Virus record (IMG/VR): IMGVR_UViG_3300013021_000001
Reading direction: 5' to 3' (one strand)
Length of the DNA stretch: 64,000 nucleotides
Origin: a virus
Taxonomy: Duplodnaviria; Heunggongvirae; Uroviricota; Caudoviricetes
Part shown: piece by piece, positions 38,021 through 55,289 of the stretch
How positions within the stretch are numbered: position 1 is the stretch's first letter
How the letters are laid out: every line of letters starts with the position of its first letter
Made by a program: the position numbers and the translations under genes
The notes under the pieces: model-generated
Databases searched by the model: none
What the model was told of the DNA's origin: nothing
The model's input: the letters and a program-made list of their open reading frames with translations, nothing else

Positions 38021-39637
38021 GTGGTAAGTTTGAGCAAATTAAAAGTAGAAGATATACAAAAAAAACTAAATATAAATAAAATAGTAGCAGAGCTAATGGT
38101 GGATAGAGGTCTTGATAACGAGAAAGATTTAGACCTCTTTCTCAACGGCTCTTTAGAAGACCTGCACGAACCAGAAAAGATACCAAACATTAAAGATTTT
38201 GCAGATAAAGTAAAAGAGTATGCCTTCTTTTCAAAGATTGCAATCTATTCAGATTATGATGCTGATGGAGTTTCATCTGCTTATATACTGAGAACTGCAC
38301 TAAAAAAGCTGTCAAACAATGCTAAGGTGGATGTCTTTTTTGCTAATAGGTTTAAAGATGGTTATGGCTTATCAAAAAGGTCAATAGATATAATGAATCA
38401 TCAGGGGGCTAAGTTAATAATTACTTTAGATTGCGGTATATCTAATCAGGCTGAAATAGATTATGCACGCTCTTTGGGAATGGAAGTAGTTGTTATCGAC
38501 CACCACGAAAGTGATGATGGTGTTGATGCTCCCTTTATAGATTTAAAAGCAAACTCGGGAGATTATCCCTTCGCTGAACTGTGTGGAGCTGGAGCAGCTT
38601 GGAAGTTTTCTCAGTACCTTTTAGATGATTTATTCTTAGATGTAATCGACATAGCAGCAGTTGCTACAGTAGCTGATGTTGTACCTTTAGTTGATGAAAA
38701 CAGAATTATCGTCAGAGAAGGCCTAAAGCGTATGAGAAAGGGTATAATGAATTCCGGCCTAAAAAATATACTTGAAGTTAACGAGGTTGATGAAACAAAA
38801 CTTTCAGCAACTGACATAGGCTTTAAGATAGGCCCACTAATCAACGCTACTGGAAGACTTAAAACCGCTCGACCAGCATACGATATTTTATATACTGACA
38901 ATGAATATCAACGTTCTGAATTAGCTGATGAGCTTTATAGAAAAAACGTTCAAAGAAAAGACATCACTAAAAAGATATTGGATGAAATGAAAAATGATAT
39001 CGATGATAGTGATAAAGTAATAGTTTGTAATGGCAATATACCACAGGGCATAGTTGGACTTATTTCAGGAAGAATATCATCTTCTTTTGAGAAGCCATCA
39101 ATAGTTGTTGATAGAAAGAGTGGTAAGGGTTCAGGCAGAAGCATAGAGCCGTTTAATCTTTACGAAAATTTAAAAGTCTGCTTAGAAGAAGAACTCTTAA
39201 ATTCTGCAGGTGGACACTCGATGGCTGCAGGCTTAAATGTATCAATGAACAAATTTGACGACTTTAGCTTAAGGTTAAATGAGCTTGCTGAAAGTGTAGA
39301 TTTAATGCCAGTAACATATGACAAGGAAATAGATATAAGTGAGGTTTCAGAAGAGCTACTATACGACCTTGAGATTTTAGAACCATGTGGAGAAGGAAAC
39401 AGGAAGCCAGTATTCTATTCAAAAGATGTTGATATAACTTCAGTCTGGGTTCTGCCAGGAAATGAACATGTTAAATTTAAAGCTGGTGGGGTTGAAGCTA
39501 TAGCTTTTAGGCAGGCTGATATGGAAAGAACCTTGAGAGAGGGTAAAGTTAATCTGACATATACAGTTGGCTGGAATGAGTATAGAGGCAGAAAGTCACT
39601 GCAAATAATAGTTGAAAAGATAAATCCTTTTAAGTAA
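38021..39637 (+). CDS. RecJ-like DHH-family ssDNA exonuclease
   Basis: AIYSDYDADGVSS (DHH motif I), VVVIDHHESDDG (DHH), and GGHSMAAG (DHHA1 GGGH). Start is GTG 38021 or TTG 38030 after GGAAGGTGG. Confidence 0.7.
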   Translation: MVSLSKLKVEDIQKKLNINKIVAELMVDRGLDNEKDLDLFLNGSLEDLHEPEKIPNIKDFADKVKEYAFFSKIAIYSDYDADGVSSAYILRTALKKLSNNAKVDVFFANRFKDGYGLSKRSIDIMNHQGAKLIITLDCGISNQAEIDYARSLGMEVVVIDHHESDDGVDAPFIDLKANSGDYPFAELCGAGAAWKFSQYLLDDLFLDVIDIAAVATVADVVPLVDENRIIVREGLKRMRKGIMNSGLKNILEVNEVDETKLSATDIGFKIGPLINATGRLKTARPAYDILYTDNEYQRSELADELYRKNVQRKDITKKILDEMKNDIDDSDKVIVCNGNIPQGIVGLISGRISSSFEKPSIVVDRKSGKGSGRSIEPFNLYENLKVCLEEELLNSAGGHSMAAGLNVSMNKFDDFSLRLNELAESVDLMPVTYDKEIDISEVSEELLYDLEILEPCGEGNRKPVFYSKDVDITSVWVLPGNEHVKFKAGGVEAIAFRQADMERTLREGKVNLTYTVGWNEYRGRKSLQIIVEKINPFK

Positions 39638-39663: not shown

Positions 39664-40086
39664 ATGTTTAAAAAATTATTGAATCTTTTTAAGAAAAATT
39701 CTTCCTTAGTTTCTGGAAATAACAATACAGTCGCCGGCAGAGATATAAACTCTGTTGGCGATAACAATTTAAAAAGCAAAGTTGTTATAAATGGAAGAAT
39801 GTATGAAGGTAACAATATTAGCATTTCAAATGGTGAGGTTCGTGTTGATGGCAGCAAAGTAGATGATATTGATGATGATATAAAATGTCTAAAAATAAAC
39901 GGAGATATAAACGGCAATTTAACTACTGACCTTGCTGTAAACTGCAACAATGTCGATGGAGATATAAGTTCTCACGGAAGTATTAACTGTGACGACGTTT
40001 TTGGAAGTGTATACTCTAAAGGCAGTGTAAATTGTGAAGATGTTAATGGTGATATTACAGCAAATGGAAGTGTAAATACTATATAA
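39664..40086 (+). CDS. Repetitive Gly/Asn/Asp-rich beta-helix-like protein (bactofilin-like repeats)
   Basis: Periodic GD/GN-[IV]-x repeats: NGDINGNLTTDLAVNCNNVDGDISSHGSINCDDVFGSVYSKGSVNCEDVNGDITANGSVN. Confidence 0.35.
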   Translation: MFKKLLNLFKKNSSLVSGNNNTVAGRDINSVGDNNLKSKVVINGRMYEGNNISISNGEVRVDGSKVDDIDDDIKCLKINGDINGNLTTDLAVNCNNVDGDISSHGSINCDDVFGSVYSKGSVNCEDVNGDITANGSVNTI

Positions 40087-40090
40087 GGTT

Positions 40091-40118
40091 GAGAAGGCAT
40101 TTCGCCTTCTCTTTTTTT
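40091..40118 (+). terminator. Rho-independent terminator GAGAAGGC-ATTTC-GCCTTCTC + TTTTTTT
   Basis: Perfect 8-bp stem, 5-nt loop, 7-T run. A TATAAT -10 follows immediately. Confidence 0.75.
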
Positions 40119-40148
40119 ATGTTATAATATGGTAAAAGGAGGATTAAA

Positions 40149-40547
40149 ATGACTAATGCTGAGGCTATGAAAGATTTGAGAGATAGAAGAAGAGAAAATG
40201 GTCTATGTACCCGGTGTGGGAAGGTAGTAGAGGACAATAGATATAGGATATGTTCTGAGTGCAGAAAATATTTAAATTTTTATAAAAGGTATGAAGTTCC
40301 TCCAGCCAGAGAAAAAACCTTGATTAGTCGCTCTCCAGTAAATGAAATAAAAAATGAAAAGCTTTATCAGGCCATGGTTAATAAAAGCCTTTCAACTAAA
40401 AAGCTTTCTAATAAAATAACAGCAACTCAAAGGACTGTTCAGCACTGGCTTTTTGATGGAACCGAACCCCGTAAATCAAACAAGATAGAAGTTAATAGTT
40501 TTTTTGAAAAAGATATATTTGAAATAAAGGAGGTAAAAAATGATTAA
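40149..40547 (+). CDS. Hypothetical protein with N-terminal Zn-finger
   Basis: CTRCGK…CSECR. RBS AAAGGAGGATTAAA. Confidence 0.4.
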   Translation: MTNAEAMKDLRDRRRENGLCTRCGKVVEDNRYRICSECRKYLNFYKRYEVPPAREKTLISRSPVNEIKNEKLYQAMVNKSLSTKKLSNKITATQRTVQHWLFDGTEPRKSNKIEVNSFFEKDIFEIKEVKND

Positions 40548-40764
40548 AACTTTAAAAGAAGATAATGGAGACTGGACTGTATATGATGATGAATCAATGA
40601 TTGCTGCTACCATATCAATAATAAATGAATATTCTATAATTCCAGAAGATGAAAAGACTAGAAAATACAGGGTTGATATGAGCGGAAAAACAGTAAGAAC
40701 ATATATAAAAAACTTCAACGATGCTGTGTCTGCAGCCGCTGAAGCTATAAGAGATAAAAAGTAA
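40540..40764 (+). CDS. Hypothetical small protein
   Basis: RBS AAGGAGGTAAAAA ATG. Confidence 0.4.
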   Translation: MIKTLKEDNGDWTVYDDESMIAATISIINEYSIIPEDEKTRKYRVDMSGKTVRTYIKNFNDAVSAAAEAIRDKK

Positions 40765-41100
40765 AATTATTTGCACATTAATATTAAATGTGTTATAGTT
40801 AAATTATAAAATATGTAGTATGTAGAGTGATACTTATCAAACTAAAATTAAAACAAAAAAAATAGGAGCGACCCACCAAGTCACTCCAGCAAACAAAAAT
40901 AAACTAAAACAAACAGAAAAAACAAAAATAACCATTTAATTGTTTAATTCTTGGATTAATAATAACACATATAGATAATATTAGTCAAGGGTTATTTAAA
41001 AGTTTTTCCTATTCTCGCCCACTGTTTGCTGGATACTTGCCAAGACTCTAGCAGCAGTGGGCTTTATTATGCTCCGAAAACAAAAGGAGATGTAGACGAA
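40765..41100. promoter_or_regulatory. Structured A-rich intergenic region upstream of the replication-initiator gene (putative regulatory or origin-associated)
   Basis: Near-palindrome CACATTAATATTAAATGTG at 40773-40791. A-rich tract with AAAACAAA-type repeats. Long-range perfect 10-bp inverted repeat CCAGCAAACA (40886-40895) / TGTTTGCTGG (41024-41033). 8-bp stem GCCCACTG (41017-41024) / CAGTGGGC (41055-41062). Confidence 0.35.
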
Positions 41101-41271
41101 ATGAATAAAAAGAAAAGAGAAAGCTTAAAAAAAGCAATGGAGATTTATAAGAATAAGGAAAAACAAAAACCAAAAGGGTACATAGAGACTAACATCAGAA
41201 TAAAGCATAGTATTTCAGAAAAACAATATGAGAAATTATTAGACTACCTATTATATGGAGGTGTTTTATAG
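41101..41271 (+). CDS. Small basic protein
   Basis: ATG 41101 after AAAAGGAGATGTAGACGAA. The track start 41026 lies inside the hairpin and has no RBS. Confidence 0.35.
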   Translation: MNKKKRESLKKAMEIYKNKEKQKPKGYIETNIRIKHSISEKQYEKLLDYLLYGGVL

Positions 41272-42224
41272 TGGCTAGACCAAGTGATATTTTACGAGGA
41301 GTAGGTAGACCAATAGCTTACTATCCAAGACTGAGAAAAATTACCGGTTCTACAGTTGCAACAATATTTTTATGTCAATTTATATATTGGAAGGGAAAAG
41401 AAAAAAGTGGGGATGGATGGATATATAAAGTGCAAGAAGAAATAAAAGAAGAAACTGGCCTTTCAAGATATGAACAGGAAACTGCAAGAGACCATCTAAA
41501 AGAAAGAGGTTTATTGTCCGAAAAAAAAGAGGGGCTACCATGCCAGACCTTTTATAAAATAAACTATGATGTTCTTGATAATTTATGGGATGAAAAAATG
41601 AACCCCGATGAGCCCCGTCATGTCCAGAATGGTGGATTACCACAAACAAGCATGGGGGATTCCAACAATCAAGAATGTGGAAATGCCACAAACCAGAATG
41701 TGGAAAACAATCAAACAAGTATGGGGGATTCCAACAAACAAGTTAGTGGAAATGCCACAAACCAGAAAAGTGCTAATAACCCCGAAATAACAGTTGCGAC
41801 AAAGGGTGAAATTTTACCAGAGAATACTACAGAGAATACTACAAATAATAATAATAACAAAAAAGCCGAAACTCAAAATTCAAAACTGCTTGTGGATAAC
41901 TTCCAAAAAGCATTCGGTAAAAAACCAAACAATTTTCAAAAGCAGAAGCTCTCAGAGTTTGTTGATAAAGGTGGCGATTTTGAACTATTGCTCAAAACAA
42001 TAGAGTACTGTGCACTAGGTGGCCACAACCAGACATTCTTTTTCAGGAGACTTGATATTCTGATGGACAAAGGTATTTATAAAAAAGATGACCTCAAAAA
42101 GATTTTTAGAAAAGACAATCTTAAAACAGCTGCAGGAGATTCTAATAAAACAGAGAAGAATAAAGTAGAGGATAATTATAAATGGAAGGATTTCTTTATA
42201 GATTTCGACAAATATAAGGAGTGA
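41271..42224 (+). CDS. Replisome organizer / replication initiator (DnaD-like) with internal repeats
   Basis: GTG start after GGAGGTG. The N-terminus P.D.L……IAYYP.LRKITGSTVATIFLCQFIYW…….W.YK..EEI.EETGLSRYEQETARDHLKERGLL resembles a phage replisome-organizer/DnaD winged helix. A 23-aa segment is duplicated internally. C-terminal DnaD/DnaB-like domain. Confidence 0.55.
   Translation: MARPSDILRGVGRPIAYYPRLRKITGSTVATIFLCQFIYWKGKEKSGDGWIYKVQEEIKEETGLSRYEQETARDHLKERGLLSEKKEGLPCQTFYKINYDVLDNLWDEKMNPDEPRHVQNGGLPQTSMGDSNNQECGNATNQNVENNQTSMGDSNKQVSGNATNQKSANNPEITVATKGEILPENTTENTTNNNNNKKAETQNSKLLVDNFQKAFGKKPNNFQKQKLSEFVDKGGDFELLLKTIEYCALGGHNQTFFFRRLDILMDKGIYKKDDLKKIFRKDNLKTAAGDSNKTEKNKVEDNYKWKDFFIDFDKYKE
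41643..41780 (+). repeat. Two tandem 69-bp direct repeats inside the initiator gene (iteron candidates)
   Basis: CAAACAAG[CT]ATGGGGGATTCCAACAA…GTGGAAATGCCACAAACCAGAA occurs twice back-to-back (41643-41711 and 41712-41780, about 85% identical), in frame (QTSMGDSNNQ…GNATNQ ×2). Confidence 0.6.
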
Positions 42225-42463
42225 GATTAATGATTCCTGTTGACAAGGATATTTATAATGAGCTCATACAGGCCAGACAAATCTATGTTAAAGATTTAGG
42301 CTTTGAGGATTTTGCTAATACTTTATTCAATGATTTGGACTATCTTATAAACAAACTTGCCTTTATAGGTTTTAGGAGGGCATACACCTGGGCCACCATG
42401 AATAAGTCTGAGTTTGCTCAGGGTATGGCTCAGGGTTTTGCGATAAGAAACGAAAGATTATGA
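42221..42463 (+). CDS. Hypothetical protein
   Basis: Start overlaps the upstream stop (ATGA). 80 aa. Confidence 0.35.
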   Translation: MRLMIPVDKDIYNELIQARQIYVKDLGFEDFANTLFNDLDYLINKLAFIGFRRAYTWATMNKSEFAQGMAQGFAIRNERL

Positions 42464-42541
42464 TGCAAATAATTGTATTTTAATTTAGTTTATAATACTA
42501 AACCTTGAAAAATGGATAGGGGTATGGTATACTTATTATAG

Positions 42542-43156
42542 GTTAAAAAGAGAGGGGGATTTACCATAAAGTTATATAAATGGCAGGAGGAAGTTTTTGA
42601 AGTTTTTAATGATAAGTCATCAGTTATAGAAGTTAAAGGAGCAAGAATAACAGGCAAAACAGAGCTTGCAAATAATTTATCTTTAAGAGATGAAGTTGTT
42701 GTAAGATACTTTAAATACAGTAGGCAAAAAGATGAATGTTTTAAATCAGCGATTAAAAAAATATCATCTCTTAAAAATCATATAAGTTATACTACTAAGG
42801 ATAGGAGAATAATTCAGTACTGGATTTTAAATAAAAATGATGAAATTGAAAGAAGAAAAATATTCTTTTTATCTGGAACATCAGATTCTGCGATTAGAAA
42901 TATATATGAAGGAGTTCATGGTTATACAGAAAAAATCGATACTTTAATTTTTGAGGATATGGAAGTCTCTGATAAAAAGGTAGCAAAAATAAGAGAACAT
43001 TTTATTAAAGACTATAATTTAAAACAGATATTTATTTTTAACTCAGCTCCTTTCAAAAGGAAACAATATATAGTAGATTTATTAGAAGTAAACAAAGAGT
43101 TGGCAGAAAACATGAAAAAACATATATCAGAAGATAGTTACAAAAAAAGAAGTTGA
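42542..43156 (+). CDS. P-loop NTPase (terminase-large-subunit-like Walker A) open frame with no canonical start codon
   Basis: Frame open from stop TAG 42539-42541 to 43156 (205 codons); first ATG only at 42959. VIEVKGARITGKTELA is a Walker A motif resembling PBSX-type TerL (GGRGSGKS). RBS AGAGGGGG at 42551-42558 has no ATG/GTG/TTG in frame downstream; the in-frame codon at good spacing is ATA (42566). Confidence 0.3.
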   Translation, partial: VKKRGGFTIKLYKWQEEVFEVFNDKSSVIEVKGARITGKTELANNLSLRDEVVVRYFKYSRQKDECFKSAIKKISSLKNHISYTTKDRRIIQYWILNKNDEIERRKIFFLSGTSDSAIRNIYEGVHGYTEKIDTLIFEDMEVSDKKVAKIREHFIKDYNLKQIFIFNSAPFKRKQYIVDLLEVNKELAENMKKHISEDSYKKRS

Positions 43157-54362: not shown

Positions 54363-54661
54363 TGATAGAGATTACAACTGTAGAGGAATTCGAGGACTTT
54401 ATCAATCAGGACAAACATGTTGTGGTTGATTTTTACGCTAAATGGTGTGGAAAGTGTAAGCAACTTAAAGGAAGGTTAATGGCCCAGTATGCTGATAAGT
54501 TTGATATTTACACAGTTGATGTTGACTCTTTTGAGGCTTTAGCTGAAGAGTATAACGTAAAAGGACTTCCGAAACTTATATTGTTTAAAAATGGAGAGAT
54601 TGTTGAAGAACAGGATAAATCAGCTATGGTATTTCTAAAAAAGATAAAAACATTACTATAA
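54362..54661 (+). CDS. Thioredoxin-like protein (CGKC active site)
   Basis: VVDFYAKWCGKCKQL is a WCxxC thioredoxin-fold motif. 99 aa. ATG 54362 after GGGAGGAATTAAATTA. Confidence 0.65.
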   Translation: MIEITTVEEFEDFINQDKHVVVDFYAKWCGKCKQLKGRLMAQYADKFDIYTVDVDSFEALAEEYNVKGLPKLILFKNGEIVEEQDKSAMVFLKKIKTLL

Positions 54662-54667
54662 AAAAAG

Positions 54668-54693
54668 AAGCCGTCCTTTTAAGGGCGGCTTTT
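54668..54693. terminator. Bidirectional terminator hairpin between convergent blocks
   Basis: AAGCCGTCCTTTTAAGGGCGGCTT stem-loop followed by TTTTG on the plus strand and preceded by an A-run. Marks the strand switch. Confidence 0.6.
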
Positions 54694-54704
54694 GTCATTT
54701 CTAT

Positions 54705-55289
54705 TTAGTTTTCTATTAACAAATCAGCTGTAGAATAAATGGCTACACCTAATGCTATGTACTCAATTTTTTCTATAAAGCTCATTGAATACATCTTTTC
54801 CTGTTCATTTATTATATCGTCTTTAAGCATTAGCTGCTCTTTCTGCAGTCCTATCACCTGATTGGCGTTAGCTATTGCACTGTCAAAAGATTCTTTCTGG
54901 TTTTTAATAGAAACTTTAAGCATGTCATTTTCATCTTCTAAGGATAATATGTATTTATCTTGAAGTTCATTCTCCTTTTTTAATCCTTTTATTAAAGATT
55001 CCTGTTTGGCTACAATGCTTTTTAGTTTCGATACTTCATTTTCAAGAGATTTAATCTTATTTGCAACATCAATAGCTTCCTGTTCTGTTAAATCATATTT
55101 TTTACTTTCTATTATCTTTTTTAGAGTTTCTATCTCTGCCTCTTGAGCTTTTATAGTGTTGCTTAGTTCTACTATTGTTGCAGATTCAGCATTAGCCTTC
55201 TGGCTTCCCATCATCATTAATACTATCAATAATATAACTATAAGCAGCGTCGCCATCAGAGTCGCCAAATTCTCCGGGTGCATTCTCAT
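54705..55289 (-). CDS. Membrane-anchored coiled-coil protein
   Basis: N-terminal TM (LLIVILLIVLMMM), long heptad-like coiled coil, C-terminal hydrophobic segment. Overlaps the upstream gene by up to 98 nt; internal Met starts are possible. Confidence 0.4.
   Translation of the reverse strand: MRMHPENLATLMATLLIVILLIVLMMMGSQKANAESATIVELSNTIKAQEAEIETLKKIIESKKYDLTEQEAIDVANKIKSLENEVSKLKSIVAKQESLIKGLKKENELQDKYILSLEDENDMLKVSIKNQKESFDSAIANANQVIGLQKEQLMLKDDIINEQEKMYSMSFIEKIEYIALGVAIYSTADLLIEN

What the first reader, a model, noticed from the sequence alone, without database searches (positions are those of the whole stretch)
40765..41780. Origin-like arrangement: structured A-rich intergenic region plus 2×69-bp iteron-like direct repeats inside the replisome-organizer gene
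A 335-bp non-coding stretch upstream of the replication-initiator gene contains a near-palindrome (CACATTAATATTAAATGTG), an A-rich tract, and nested long-range inverted repeats. The initiator gene itself carries two back-to-back 69-bp repeats (41643-41780) that are kept in frame. Origins embedded in replisome-organizer genes are known for lactococcal and staphylococcal phages, and this looks like the same arrangement.
Basis: partly seen in the sequence, partly recalled or inferred. Interest (0 to 1): 0.55.

Follow-up and report, generated by a model that had tools for sequence, protein, structure and literature searches.

The report
Replication origin inside phage initiator gene
The repeats inside this large phage's replication-initiator gene are six 23-bp binding sites followed by a conserved 12-bp motif and an AT-rich tract, which is a lambda-like replication origin embedded in the gene; this is a known arrangement, shared by hundreds of related phage genes, and the non-coding stretch upstream looks like the gene's control region, not part of the origin.

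Summary
The 2x69-bp repeat (41624-41767) is a duplicated block of three 23-bp units, giving six or seven iteron-like sites (41620-41780). Because 23 is not a multiple of 3, the same DNA motif is read in all three codon phases. The array starts at codon 117. It lies in a predicted disordered linker between a winged-helix N-terminal domain and a DnaD-like C-terminal domain. Lambda's ori iterons start at codon 117 of gene O too.

In 76 non-redundant homologous loci the linker shows a sharp 23-bp periodicity, which the flanking coding DNA lacks. The sites share a dyad-symmetric consensus. They are followed by ACAGAGAnTACw repeats whose silent codon positions never vary while one amino-acid-changing base varies freely. 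A mosaic relative has swapped exactly the N-terminal domain plus the array and kept both flanks.

So an origin inside the initiator gene is well supported computationally, though not demonstrated. It is a known kind (lambda O/ori, SPP1 oriL, pSK41 rep).

The upstream 336 bp is better read as a control region: a promoter with a palindrome in its spacer, a candidate ~96-nt antisense RNA, and a terminator/anti-terminator pair. That part rests on one sequence only.

The parts
40771..40799 (+). Sigma-70-like promoter TTGCAC-N17-TATAGT with TG (extended -10). The near-palindrome CACATTAATATTAAATGTG (40774-40792) fills the spacer, which is an operator-like position.
   Evidence: The palindrome is unique in the window. 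It is kept in L006 with one central substitution even though L006 has a different initiator N-terminal domain, so it is probably not the initiator's own operator.
40855..40988 (-). Candidate antisense small RNA gene of about 96 nt. Promoter TTGACT-N18-TATTAT with TG (40988->40959). Predicted start near 40952. Intrinsic terminator GGAGTGACTTGGTGGGTCGCTCC + TATTTTTTTT (40887->40855).
   Evidence: this is one of the few strong terminators in 40-60 kb, and it lies opposite a block of + strand genes with no plausible minus-strand ORF. Three stem pairs are G-U on the minus strand and become C-A mismatches on the + strand (read from the sequence). The fold has z = -3.07. No Rfam family matches. It is a prediction only.
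40891..40931 (.). A-tracts phased at 10 bp (AAACAAAAAT x4.2), a signature of intrinsically bent DNA, lying inside the antisense RNA region.
   Evidence: Their role was not established.
40877..40895 (+). Candidate pre-emptor (anti-terminator) segment of the leader. It pairs with 41023-41039.
   Evidence: The duplex is 16 bp at -22.2 kcal/mol, and 2 of 300 shuffled leaders do as well. It is present in the predicted minimum-energy fold of every partial transcript ending between 41040 and 41056. It is covered by the candidate antisense RNA.
41017..41070 (+). Strong hairpin (41017-41062) followed by UUUAUUAU. It looks like a terminator or attenuator and sits about 30 nt before the start codon of the 56-aa ORF.
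   Evidence: -27.5 kcal/mol, z = -4.2, 0 of 200 shuffles as stable.. There is no room for a promoter between it and 41101, so initiator transcripts must read through it.
41101..41271 (+). A 56-aa ORF translationally coupled to the initiator (TAGTG overlap).
   Evidence: In L006, 8 of the 11 substitutions are at third codon positions, 7 of them silent, and there are 4 amino-acid changes. No family hit.
41271..42224 (+). Replication initiator, 317 aa. Winged-helix N-terminal domain at aa 1-112, disordered linker at aa 113-196, DnaD-like C-terminal domain at aa 196-280.
   Evidence: phrog_9773 E = 2e-47 and phrog_6493 'DnaD-like helicase loader' E = 1e-18. Pfam DnaB_2 scores 20 bits against a 22-bit cut-off. 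AlphaFold2 pLDDT is about 95 / 40-45 / 85-93 for the three segments. Foldseek finds winged-helix folds, including staphylococcal RepA_N initiators.
41620..41780 (.). Iteron array: six 23-bp units starting at 41620, 41643, 41666, 41689, 41712 and 41735, plus a degenerate seventh at 41758. The core is a dyad such as TGTGGAAATGCCACA (41676-41690). The arrangement is a-b-c-a'-b'-c', which is the 69-bp duplication.
   Evidence: The family shows the same 23-bp period.
41817..41840 (.). Two copies of the conserved 12-mer ACAGAGAnTACw (CCAGAGAATACT, then ACAGAGAATACT).
   Evidence: The silent positions are invariant across the family. The 12-mer is also the right-hand junction of the module swap in L006.
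41841..41865 (.). AT-rich tract ACAAATAATAATAATAACAAAAAAG, a candidate DNA-unwinding element. The (AAT)n run varies in length between population variants.
   Evidence: it is the least stable 30-nt window in the gene and in the top 1% of the 64 kb; one AAT unit more or fewer in L007, L174, L176 and L008. Divergence in L005 begins at 41846.

Best explanation
The segment 41620-41865, inside the initiator gene, is a lambda/pSK41-type replication origin.

Proposed mechanism (binding, melting and recruitment are all inferred, not shown):
- The winged-helix N-terminal domain of the protein encoded by this same gene binds, probably as dimers, to six or seven dyad-symmetric iterons spaced exactly 23 bp apart.
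- This forms a wrapped nucleoprotein complex.
- The complex destabilises the adjacent ACAGAGAnTACw repeats and the (AAT)n/A-rich tract.
- The DnaD-like C-terminal domain then recruits the helicase, loader or primase.

The origin occupies the part of the gene that encodes a disordered linker. That part tolerates constraints at the DNA level. Because the array must stay in frame, it can grow only in blocks of three units, which explains the 69-bp duplication.

Separately, and with lower confidence (about 0.35), the 336-bp upstream region is the control region of the initiator operon:
- a promoter with an operator-like palindrome;
- a convergent ~96-nt antisense RNA;
- a leader that can form either a pre-emptor helix or a terminator.

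Antisense pairing would sequester the pre-emptor and attenuate initiator transcription, as in plasmids pT181 and pIP501.
For: Shown by computation:

1. A 23-bp period that cannot be a codon repeat. The same consensus, CAAACAAGAATGCGGAAAACC, appears in all three codon phases, with 66, 80 and 88 sites.

2. Family-wide conservation.
- In 76 non-redundant loci, autocorrelation in the linker peaks at lag 23 (0.437) and lag 46 (0.399), against a background of about 0.26.
- The best lag is 23 or 46 in 64 of 76 loci.
- No such peak appears in the N- or C-terminal coding DNA.
- Of 160 gaps between successive sites, 142 are exactly 23 bp.

3. Dyad covariation at the two variable arm positions: 51-52% complementary against 34% expected.

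4. The 12-mer is constrained as DNA.
- Within TE[NTIS]T motifs, codon ACA occurs in 93 of 93 cases (background 31%) and GAG in 93 of 93 (background 41%).
- The wobble T is kept in 92 of 93 cases.
- The amino-acid-changing middle base is free (N, I, T or S).
- The host ORFs range from 35 to 60% GC.

5. Searching IMG/VR with the 12-mer DNA pattern alone returned at least 120 contigs.
- In all 120 the motif lies in the middle of an ORF of about 308 aa.
- The 200 nt upstream have a best lag of 23 or 46 in 86 of the 115 with enough upstream sequence.
- The ORFs fall into several N-terminal families. The four representatives scanned against PHROGs, covering the two largest families, are annotated as replication initiation proteins or DnaD-like helicase loaders.

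6. Module swap. L006 is 97.8% identical over 40579-41270 and 94.4% over 41808-42251, but 41271-41807 is replaced. The replacement is a different winged-helix domain plus a different dyad repeat.

7. Same position as in lambda. Lambda's annotated iterons start at nt 349 of gene O and are spaced 20, 24 and 23 bp apart. Here the array starts at nt 350.

8. The origin DNA coincides with the disordered linker. The AT tract is the least stable 30-mer in the gene.

From the literature:
- Lambda and Stx phages have iterons plus an AT-rich tract in the middle of O (PMC7466680).
- SPP1 oriL lies within gene 38 (PMC6316719).
- pSK41 has Rep boxes in the centre of rep, encoding a dispensable linker. Plasmid pPR9 is a chimera in which the N-terminal domain and the origin were swapped together (PMC5703833).

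Control region.
Against: - There is no experimental evidence of replication initiation or of protein binding.
- GC skew shows no inflection at 41 kb. The only turn, at about 54.7 kb, is a convergence of gene blocks. If skew reflected replication here, the origin would lie outside this window.
- This is a jumbo phage with its own DnaE: an identical neighbouring protein occurs on a 203.6-kb contig. It may use other origins or recombination-dependent replication.
- The N-terminal domain has no sequence homology to lambda O, and no Pfam hit to RepA_N, SPP1 G38P or any other N-terminal family.
- AT-rich windows are common in a 32% GC genome, so the AT tract is only moderately unusual.
- No recognisable helicase-loader gene follows the initiator.
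- For the control-region model:
  - Promoter-like matches are no more frequent than in shuffled sequence.
  - The completed terminator is thermodynamically favoured over the pre-emptor.
  - No diverged relatives exist, so covariation cannot be tested.
  - Antisense terminators upstream of the initiator are not a family trait: 3 of 57 loci.
Confidence: 0.75

Rival explanations
1. The repeats are only a protein-level feature: a low-complexity, recently duplicated linker peptide with no function as DNA.
For: The region encodes a disordered, N/Q/T-rich linker. The 69-bp duplication is in frame. Linker peptides often expand by duplication.
Against: - The 23-bp period is incompatible with a peptide repeat.
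- The same DNA consensus occurs in all three codon phases.
- The period is conserved in 64 of 76 diverged loci.
- In the adjacent 12-mer, silent positions are fixed while an amino-acid-changing base varies.
- The dyad arms covary.
Confidence: 0.04
2. The iterons are initiator-binding sites used mainly for something other than initiation, such as autoregulation, copy-number 'handcuffing', incompatibility or partition. The true origin would lie elsewhere, for example at the divergent end of the gene block outside this window.
For: In plasmids, iterons do double as control elements (general knowledge of iteron plasmids). GC skew gives no sign of an origin at 41 kb. One relative of a third specificity type sits next to a ParA gene (L169).
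Against: - The full origin layout is present and conserved: iterons, then 12-mer repeats, then an AT tract, always in that order.
- No second copy of the iterons or the 12-mers exists in the 64 kb.
- In lambda, SPP1 and pSK41 the equivalent intragenic sites are the origin.
Confidence: 0.1
3. The upstream 336-bp non-coding region (palindrome, phased A-tracts, inverted repeats) is itself part of the origin.
For: It holds a palindrome, 10-bp-phased A-tracts (bent DNA) and long inverted repeats. Origins often need nearby transcription, as lambda does.
Against: - It stays unchanged when the N-terminal domain and iterons are swapped (L006).
- It was not found in any other fetched locus.
- Each feature has a simpler transcriptional reading: the palindrome fills a promoter spacer, one inverted repeat is a strand-specific terminator, and another is a terminator/pre-emptor pair.
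Confidence: 0.1
4. The invariant 12-mer and AT tract are kept mainly as a shared recombination joint that lets N-terminal-domain/origin modules and C-terminal modules be exchanged, and not as an unwinding or loading element. This does not exclude the best explanation.
For: - In three independent comparisons the breakpoint lies here: L006 homology resumes at 41808, L005 divergence begins at 41846, and there is an (AAT) length change at 41844.
- The motif is shared by different N- and C-terminal families.
Against: A 24-48-nt tract is short for homologous exchange. Its fixed position next to the iterons, and the AT-rich DNA that follows it in the loci inspected by eye (window, L006, L169, L173), match the unwinding elements of characterised origins.
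Confidence: 0.15

Closest known systems
Phage lambda ori-lambda inside gene O (and the Stx-phage variants with six iterons)
   Same: - The iterons sit in the middle of the initiator gene and start at the same codon (117).
- They have dyad symmetry with an A-rich centre: lambda TCCCTC-AAAAC-GAGGGA, this family GCGG-AAAAC-CCGC.
- Spacing is 20-24 bp in lambda and 23 bp here.
- An A-rich, AT-rich tract follows on the coding strand.
- The N-terminal domain carries origin specificity, and the origin region encodes a linker.
   Different: - There is no detectable sequence homology to lambda O / Pfam PF04492.
- The C-terminal domain is DnaD-like, not P-binding.
- No P-like gene lies downstream.
- Spacing is strictly 23 bp.
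- There is an extra conserved 12-mer repeat.
RepA_N theta plasmids of Firmicutes, prototype pSK41 (with pPR9 as a chimera)
   Same: - The initiator is about 319 aa, with a winged-helix N-terminal domain of about 120 aa.
- The origin (Rep boxes) lies centrally in the gene and encodes a linker.
- The C-terminal domain is DnaD-like.
- A natural chimera swapped the N-terminal domain and the origin (~500 bp) while keeping the C-terminal domain and the upstream control region. L006 relates to this window in exactly the same way.
- An antisense RNA against the rep leader controls expression (PMC5703833).
   Different: - There is no RepA_N (PF06970) hit, only weak fold similarity at E = 0.03-0.15.
- This is a phage, not a plasmid.
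- The iteron sequence and number differ.
- pSK41 RNAI acts on translation, whereas the leader here looks like a transcription attenuator.
- The antisense RNA here is only predicted.
Bacillus phage SPP1 oriL inside gene 38 (replisome organizer G38P)
   Same: Direct repeats bound by the initiator, plus an AT-rich unwinding element, lie inside the initiator gene of a Firmicutes phage (PMC6316719).
   Different: No Pfam family was hit by the N-terminal domain. SPP1 has a second origin copy, oriR, whereas no second copy exists in this 64 kb.
Countertranscript-driven attenuation of rep genes in pT181 and pIP501
   Same: - A short antisense RNA is made from within the rep leader.
- A pre-emptor can pair with the 5' arm of a terminator that lies just upstream of the rep ribosome-binding site.
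- The promoters are convergent.
- A possible repressor operator overlaps the sense promoter, as with CopR in pIP501 (PMC5703833).
   Different: Everything here is predicted from one sequence. There is no homology to those RNAs and no Rfam hit. A 56-aa ORF lies between the attenuator and the initiator.

Membership tests
Lambda O / ori-lambda (Pfam Phage_rep_O, PF04492) | N-terminal domain homologous to PF04492 | tested here: not met
   No PF04492 hit at E <= 0.1, whereas lambda O itself hits at 5.7e-36. BLASTP E = 1.6. hhalign probability 0.2%.
Lambda O / ori-lambda (Pfam Phage_rep_O, PF04492) | Four or more dyad-symmetric iterons about 20-24 bp apart in the middle of the initiator gene, followed by an AT-rich tract | tested here: met
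   Six or seven units at 23 bp from codon 117, with dyad TGTGG-N5-CCACA, followed by the AT tract 41841-41865.
Lambda O / ori-lambda (Pfam Phage_rep_O, PF04492) | Initiator binds the iterons and the segment supports initiation | not testable with these tools
   Needs gel-shift or footprinting assays and an origin assay.
Lambda O / ori-lambda (Pfam Phage_rep_O, PF04492) | P-like helicase-loader gene immediately downstream | tested here: not met
   The downstream 80-aa ORF has no family hit. The next ORF (42566-43153, with a Walker A motif) has no PHROG hit.
RepA_N plasmid replicons (pSK41 type) | RepA_N domain (PF06970) at the N-terminus | tested here: not met
   No Pfam hit. There is only weak fold similarity to chains 4pql, 4pt7 and 5kbj (E = 0.03-0.15, target TM-score 0.44-0.50).
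RepA_N plasmid replicons (pSK41 type) | Origin in the central part of the rep gene, encoding a linker between the N- and C-terminal domains | tested here: met
   The array, 12-mers and AT tract span aa 117-199, which coincides with the segment of pLDDT about 40 (aa 113-196). Whether the peptide is dispensable was not testable.
RepA_N plasmid replicons (pSK41 type) | DnaD-like C-terminal domain | tested here: inconclusive
   PF07261 scores 20 bits against a 22-bit cut-off. TIGR01446 scores 18.6 against 24.95. PHROG 'DnaD-like helicase loader' hits at 1e-18. The model is helical with pLDDT 85-93.
pT181/pIP501-type antisense attenuation | Antisense promoter and terminator inside the rep leader | tested here: inconclusive
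   The minus-strand terminator is strong, and there is a 10/12 promoter match with TG. Promoter-like matches are not enriched over shuffles, and no transcript data exist.
pT181/pIP501-type antisense attenuation | Mutually exclusive pre-emptor and terminator pairings, with the pre-emptor inside the antisense target | tested here: met
   40877-40895 pairs with 41023-41039 (-22.2 kcal/mol; 2 of 300 shuffles as good). This competes with hairpin 41017-41062 (-27.5 kcal/mol, z = -4.2). The pre-emptor lies within 40856-40952. All of this is prediction only.
pT181/pIP501-type antisense attenuation | Conservation or covariation of the RNA structures in relatives | not testable with these tools
   Only near-identical copies of the leader were found: 0-3 substitutions, none in a helix.

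The most novel reading that the evidence does not exclude
The 12-mer ACAGAGAnTACw, repeated two to four times just downstream of 23-bp iterons, may be a previously undescribed sequence-specific core element of replication origins. It could be an unwinding, single-strand-binding or helicase-entry site. It is shared by several initiator N-terminal families in phages and prophages from widely different bacterial groups, including Enterobacterales, Pasteurellaceae, Acinetobacter, Firmicutes, Nitrospirota and Chloroflexota. That spread would imply recognition by a conserved surface of this initiator superfamily or by a universal host factor. In this jumbo phage the origin-carrying initiator would in addition be under plasmid-style antisense-RNA attenuation.
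Probability: 0.3. Interest if true: 0.65.

Novelty: new member of a known kind. Interest (0 to 1): 0.45.

Why it matters
It gives a concrete, testable origin for an uncultured jumbo phage (an identical neighbouring protein occurs on a 203.6-kb contig).

More usefully, it gives a sequence rule that appears to mark the origin in hundreds of phage and prophage initiator genes that have no Pfam N-terminal family. The rule is: winged-helix N-terminal domain, then 23-bp dyad iterons, then ACAGAGAnTACw repeats, then an AT tract.

The fixed silent positions next to a free coding position are a clean example of DNA function overriding codon choice inside a gene. The swap of the N-terminal domain and the iterons as one block shows how origin specificity moves between phages.

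The predicted antisense attenuator, if real, would extend plasmid copy-control logic to a large phage.

Tried and rejected
- **Known RNAs and tRNAs.** Rfam at gathering thresholds on the whole window, and at E <= 1 on 40700-41900, found no family. There are no tRNAs.
- **DNA similarity to phage records.** Megablast of 40000-43000 found nothing.
- **Homology to lambda O and to solved structures.** None by sequence.
- **GC skew.** It is monotonic through the locus and follows gene strand, so it says nothing about the origin.
- **A second origin copy in the window, as in SPP1 oriR.** None found.
- **The palindrome as the initiator's own operator, as in iteron plasmids.** Rejected, because L006 keeps the palindrome with a different N-terminal domain and different iterons. 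The palindrome shares only AATGTG with the iteron half-site.
- **Diverged relatives of the leader, needed for covariation.**
  - nhmmer against all fetched loci found only near-identical copies.
  - IMG/VR scans with the 132-aa and 56-aa neighbours found nothing.
  - A protein search with the 132-aa neighbour returned only an identical protein and one weak hit.
  - Population variants have 0 substitutions in 40765-41843.
- **Antisense control as a family trait.** A minus-strand terminator lies within 600 nt upstream of the initiator in only 3 of 57 homologous loci.
- **Literature searches for the 12-mer DNA or the TENTTE/TEITTE peptide.** Nothing relevant.
- **High-GC betaproteobacterial homologues (L356-L383).** They lack the 23-bp signal. 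They were not pursued.
Full report
**What is there**

The window carries a block of + strand genes (DnaE-like polymerase at 34682-37711, RecJ-like exonuclease at 38021-39637, small ORFs), followed by a 336-nt gap with no ORF (40765-41100). After the gap come a 56-aa ORF (41101-41271) and, overlapping its stop by one base, a 317-aa ORF at 41271-42224. The 317-aa protein is a replication initiator. It hits phrog_9773 'replication initiation O-like' at 2e-47 over aa 4-220 and phrog_6493 'DnaD-like helicase loader' at 1e-18. It gives a sub-threshold DnaB_2/DnaD hit at aa 209-273. The N-terminal half has no Pfam, NCBIfam or PDB sequence match.

AlphaFold2, run with a 93-sequence alignment, gives three segments:
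- a confident helix/beta-hairpin N-terminal domain (aa 1-112, pLDDT about 95);
- a disordered stretch (aa 113-196, pLDDT 40-45);
- a helical C-terminal domain (aa 196-280, pLDDT 85-93).

Foldseek places the N-terminal domain among winged-helix DNA binders, including the staphylococcal RepA_N initiators, but only weakly.

**The repeats**

Tandem Repeats Finder (TRF) confirms the 69-bp tandem at 41624-41767 (2.1 copies, 86% matches). It also reports a 23-bp period with more than five copies. The repeat finder gives copies at spacings of 23, 23, 23, 23. The 69-bp unit is therefore three diverged 23-bp units, and the array reads a-b-c-a'-b'-c'. Because 23 is not a multiple of 3, successive units are translated in different frames (QTSMGDSN, NQECGNAT, NQNVENNQ). 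An in-frame expansion has to add three units at once. Each unit has a dyad core, perfect in TGTGGAAATGCCACA at 41676-41690.

Two copies of a 12-mer follow (CCAGAGAATACT and ACAGAGAATACT, 41817-41840). Next comes ACAAATAATAATAATAACAAAAAAG. That tract is the least stable 30-mer in the gene and lies in the top 1% of the 64 kb.

**Evidence from relatives**

A protein search and three collection scans gave several hundred homologous loci.
- TRF found a tandem repeat just after the N-terminal domain in 127 of 149 loci. Very often its period was exactly 23, 46 or 69.
- In 76 non-redundant loci, the 180 nt after the N-terminal domain have a mean self-identity of 0.437 at lag 23 and 0.399 at lag 46, against about 0.26 at other lags. 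The best lag is 23 or 46 in 64 of 76 loci. The N- and C-terminal coding DNA shows no such peak.
- An iteratively refined position-weight matrix converges on CAAACAAGAATGCGGAAAACCCG. It finds 234 sites, and 142 of 160 gaps between sites are exactly 23 bp. That is 3.04 sites per linker, against 0.06 in N-terminal coding DNA and 0.25 in shuffled linkers.
- The same consensus is recovered separately in each of the three codon phases.
- Around position 18 the site is a dyad. At the two variable arm positions, complementarity is 51-52% against 34% expected. This fits a dimeric winged-helix protein whose specificity differs from phage to phage.

**The 12-mer is constrained as DNA**

Wherever the linker reads T-E-[N/T/I/S]-T, the codons are as follows:
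- ACA in 93 of 93 cases (background use 31%);
- GAG in 93 of 93 cases (background 41%);
- A-n-T with the wobble T in 92 of 93 cases, while the middle, amino-acid-changing base varies freely;
- AC(T/A) in 90 of 93 cases.

The host ORFs range from 35 to 60% GC.

In all 120 the motif lies in that reading frame, in the middle of an ORF of median length 308 aa. In 86 of the 115 with enough upstream sequence, the 200 nt upstream have a best lag of 23 or 46. The ORFs fall into at least two large and several small N-terminal families. The four representatives scanned against PHROGs, which cover the two largest families, are annotated as replication initiation proteins or DnaD-like helicase loaders.

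An E. coli Stx2d prophage gene annotated as replication protein O shows the same layout: 23 bp x2.7, then TACAGAGAATAC x3.7. Prophages and plasmids from many bacterial groups carry the 23-bp signal. A high-GC betaproteobacterial subgroup does not.

**Module swap**

Contig L006 is 97.8% identical to the window over 40579-41270 and 94.4% identical over 41808-42251. The segment 41271-41807 is replaced by a different winged-helix domain followed by a different repeat (21-bp units containing the dyad TGTTTcAAACA), and a short extra stretch with a small ORF is inserted just upstream of it. A third N-terminal type (P0007, L169) joined to the same kind of C-terminal domain has yet another set of dyads (GTTGAAATCAAC). 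These are followed by ACAGAAATTACT x2 and (TAA)7. The N-terminal domain and its repeats therefore travel together, while the 12-mer and AT tract are common to all types.

Among population variants of this phage, the array is identical. The only change is one AAT unit more or fewer at 41844, and divergence in L005 begins at 41846. The 12-mer/AT tract is thus also where recombination joints fall.

**Comparison with known systems**

- **Lambda.** In the lambda record the four ori iterons start at nt 349 of gene O and are spaced 20, 24 and 23 bp apart. Here the array starts at nt 350. Lambda iterons have an AAAAC centre between their inverted arms, as does this family's consensus, and an A-rich tract follows them. 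The literature describes the lambdoid origin as iterons plus an AT-rich tract in the middle of O (PMC7466680).
- **SPP1.** oriL consists of direct repeats plus an unwinding element inside gene 38 (PMC6316719).
- **pSK41.** Rep is a 319-aa protein whose N-terminal domain of about 120 aa binds Rep boxes in the centre of its own gene. That central DNA encodes a dispensable linker, and the C-terminal domain is DnaD-like. Plasmid pPR9 is a natural chimera in which the N-terminal domain and the origin were swapped while the C-terminal domain and the upstream control region were kept (PMC5703833).

The locus here works like these systems. By sequence it is not a member of the lambda O family (PF04492), and its N-terminal domain gave no hit to RepA_N, the SPP1 organizer or any other Pfam family.

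**The upstream 336 nt**

The palindrome sits exactly between TTGCAC and TGnTATAGT, spaced 17 nt apart (40771-40799), which is an operator-like position. It survives in L006, so it is unlikely to be the initiator's own binding site.

On the minus strand there is a strong intrinsic terminator (40887->40865 plus a T8 run). It is one of the few strong terminators in 40-60 kb, and the others close real genes. About 70 nt upstream of it lies TTGACT-N18-TGnTATTAT. Three of its stem pairs are G-U on the minus strand and would be C-A mismatches on the + strand. Together these features predict a ~96-nt antisense RNA.

On the + strand a 46-nt hairpin (41017-41062; -27.5 kcal/mol; z = -4.2) followed by UUUAUUAU lies about 30 nt before the start codon of the 56-aa ORF. 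There is no room for a promoter after it. Folding partial transcripts shows that, until the 3' arm of this hairpin is made, its 5' arm pairs with 40877-40895. That duplex is 16 bp at -22.2 kcal/mol, and 2 of 300 shuffled leaders do as well. The segment 40877-40895 lies inside the antisense target.

This is the pre-emptor/terminator logic of pT181 and pIP501. It rests on one sequence. No diverged copy of the leader exists in any collection searched. Antisense terminators are not a family trait. No Rfam family matches.

**Weak points**

- Nothing here shows initiation or binding.
- GC skew has no inflection at 41 kb and turns only at the convergent gene-block boundary near 54.7 kb. It tracks gene strand, so it neither supports nor refutes the origin.
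- The phage is large (an identical neighbouring protein is on a 203.6-kb contig) and has its own DnaE. Other origins or recombination-dependent replication are possible.
- No helicase-loader gene is recognisable downstream.

**Verdict**

An origin inside the initiator gene is well supported by comparative sequence evidence. Including the upstream region in the origin is not supported. The arrangement is a new member of a known kind. The family-wide 23-bp rule and the invariant 12-mer are the parts that may be new. Searches of the paper library for the DNA motif and for its peptide found nothing relevant.

Noticed in passing
window 42542-43156 (+): This frame is open for about 197 codons and encodes a Walker A motif (GARITGKT). 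It has no in-frame ATG, GTG or TTG before 42959. It follows a promoter-like site (TTGAAA-N17-TATACT, 42505-42533) and a strong ribosome-binding site (AGAGAGGGGGA), with ATA at 42566. It may use a non-canonical start codon. It had no PHROG hit.
   Followed up: partly
window 40540-40764 (+), compared with L007, L174, L176, L177 and L180: The 74-aa gene just upstream of the leader differs at 25 substitutions plus one compensated indel pair, all within 40557-40755, between population variants. The next ~1.1 kb (40765-41843) is identical. This is a sharp mosaic boundary at the stop codon.
   Followed up: partly
window 41844-41852: The (AAT)n run inside the initiator gene varies by one unit between otherwise identical metagenome contigs (L007, L174 and L176 have one more; L008 has one fewer). 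This changes the run of asparagines.
   Followed up: yes
whole window; P0121 look-up: An identical 132-aa neighbouring protein occurs on 20 contigs, the longest 203,621 bp, so this is probably a jumbo phage. Its DnaE is 45% identical to that of the 177-kb Moorella phage MTATph1. There was no DNA-level match in GenBank phage records.
   Followed up: partly
window about 54650-54710: Gene orientation and GC/AT skew flip here, so the two gene blocks converge. A strong hairpin lies at 54666-54693, between the last + strand genes and the first minus-strand gene (54705-55289).
   Followed up: no
L167 (phage lambda) 1121-1175: Lambda DNA just right of iteron 4 contains ACACTATTACAA and TCAGAGAATTC. 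These resemble the 13-mer variant ACACTAGATTACA and the 12-mer ACAGAGAATAC seen in this family. This could be chance or a trace of a shared origin core.
   Followed up: no
L169 1255-3528: An initiator with a third N-terminal type, but the same kind of C-terminal domain as the window, lies directly after a ParA-family ATPase gene and a 134-aa ORF. This suggests a plasmid or phage-plasmid replicon that uses the same origin layout.
   Followed up: partly
L356-L383 (high-GC Betaproteobacteria and relatives): In many of these loci the homologous match is stretched over about 1.1-1.3 kb. The group lacks both the 23-bp periodicity and the 12-mer. They may be a subgroup with an inserted segment or a different origin arrangement.
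   Followed up: no
window 40149-40547 (+): This 132-aa protein has weak N-terminal zinc-ribbon hits and a C-terminal helix-turn-helix-like stretch (ITATQRTVQHWLFDGTEP, judged by eye). It lies two genes upstream of the palindrome-containing promoter and is a candidate repressor for it. One source mislabels it 'RecJ-like exonuclease'.
   Followed up: no
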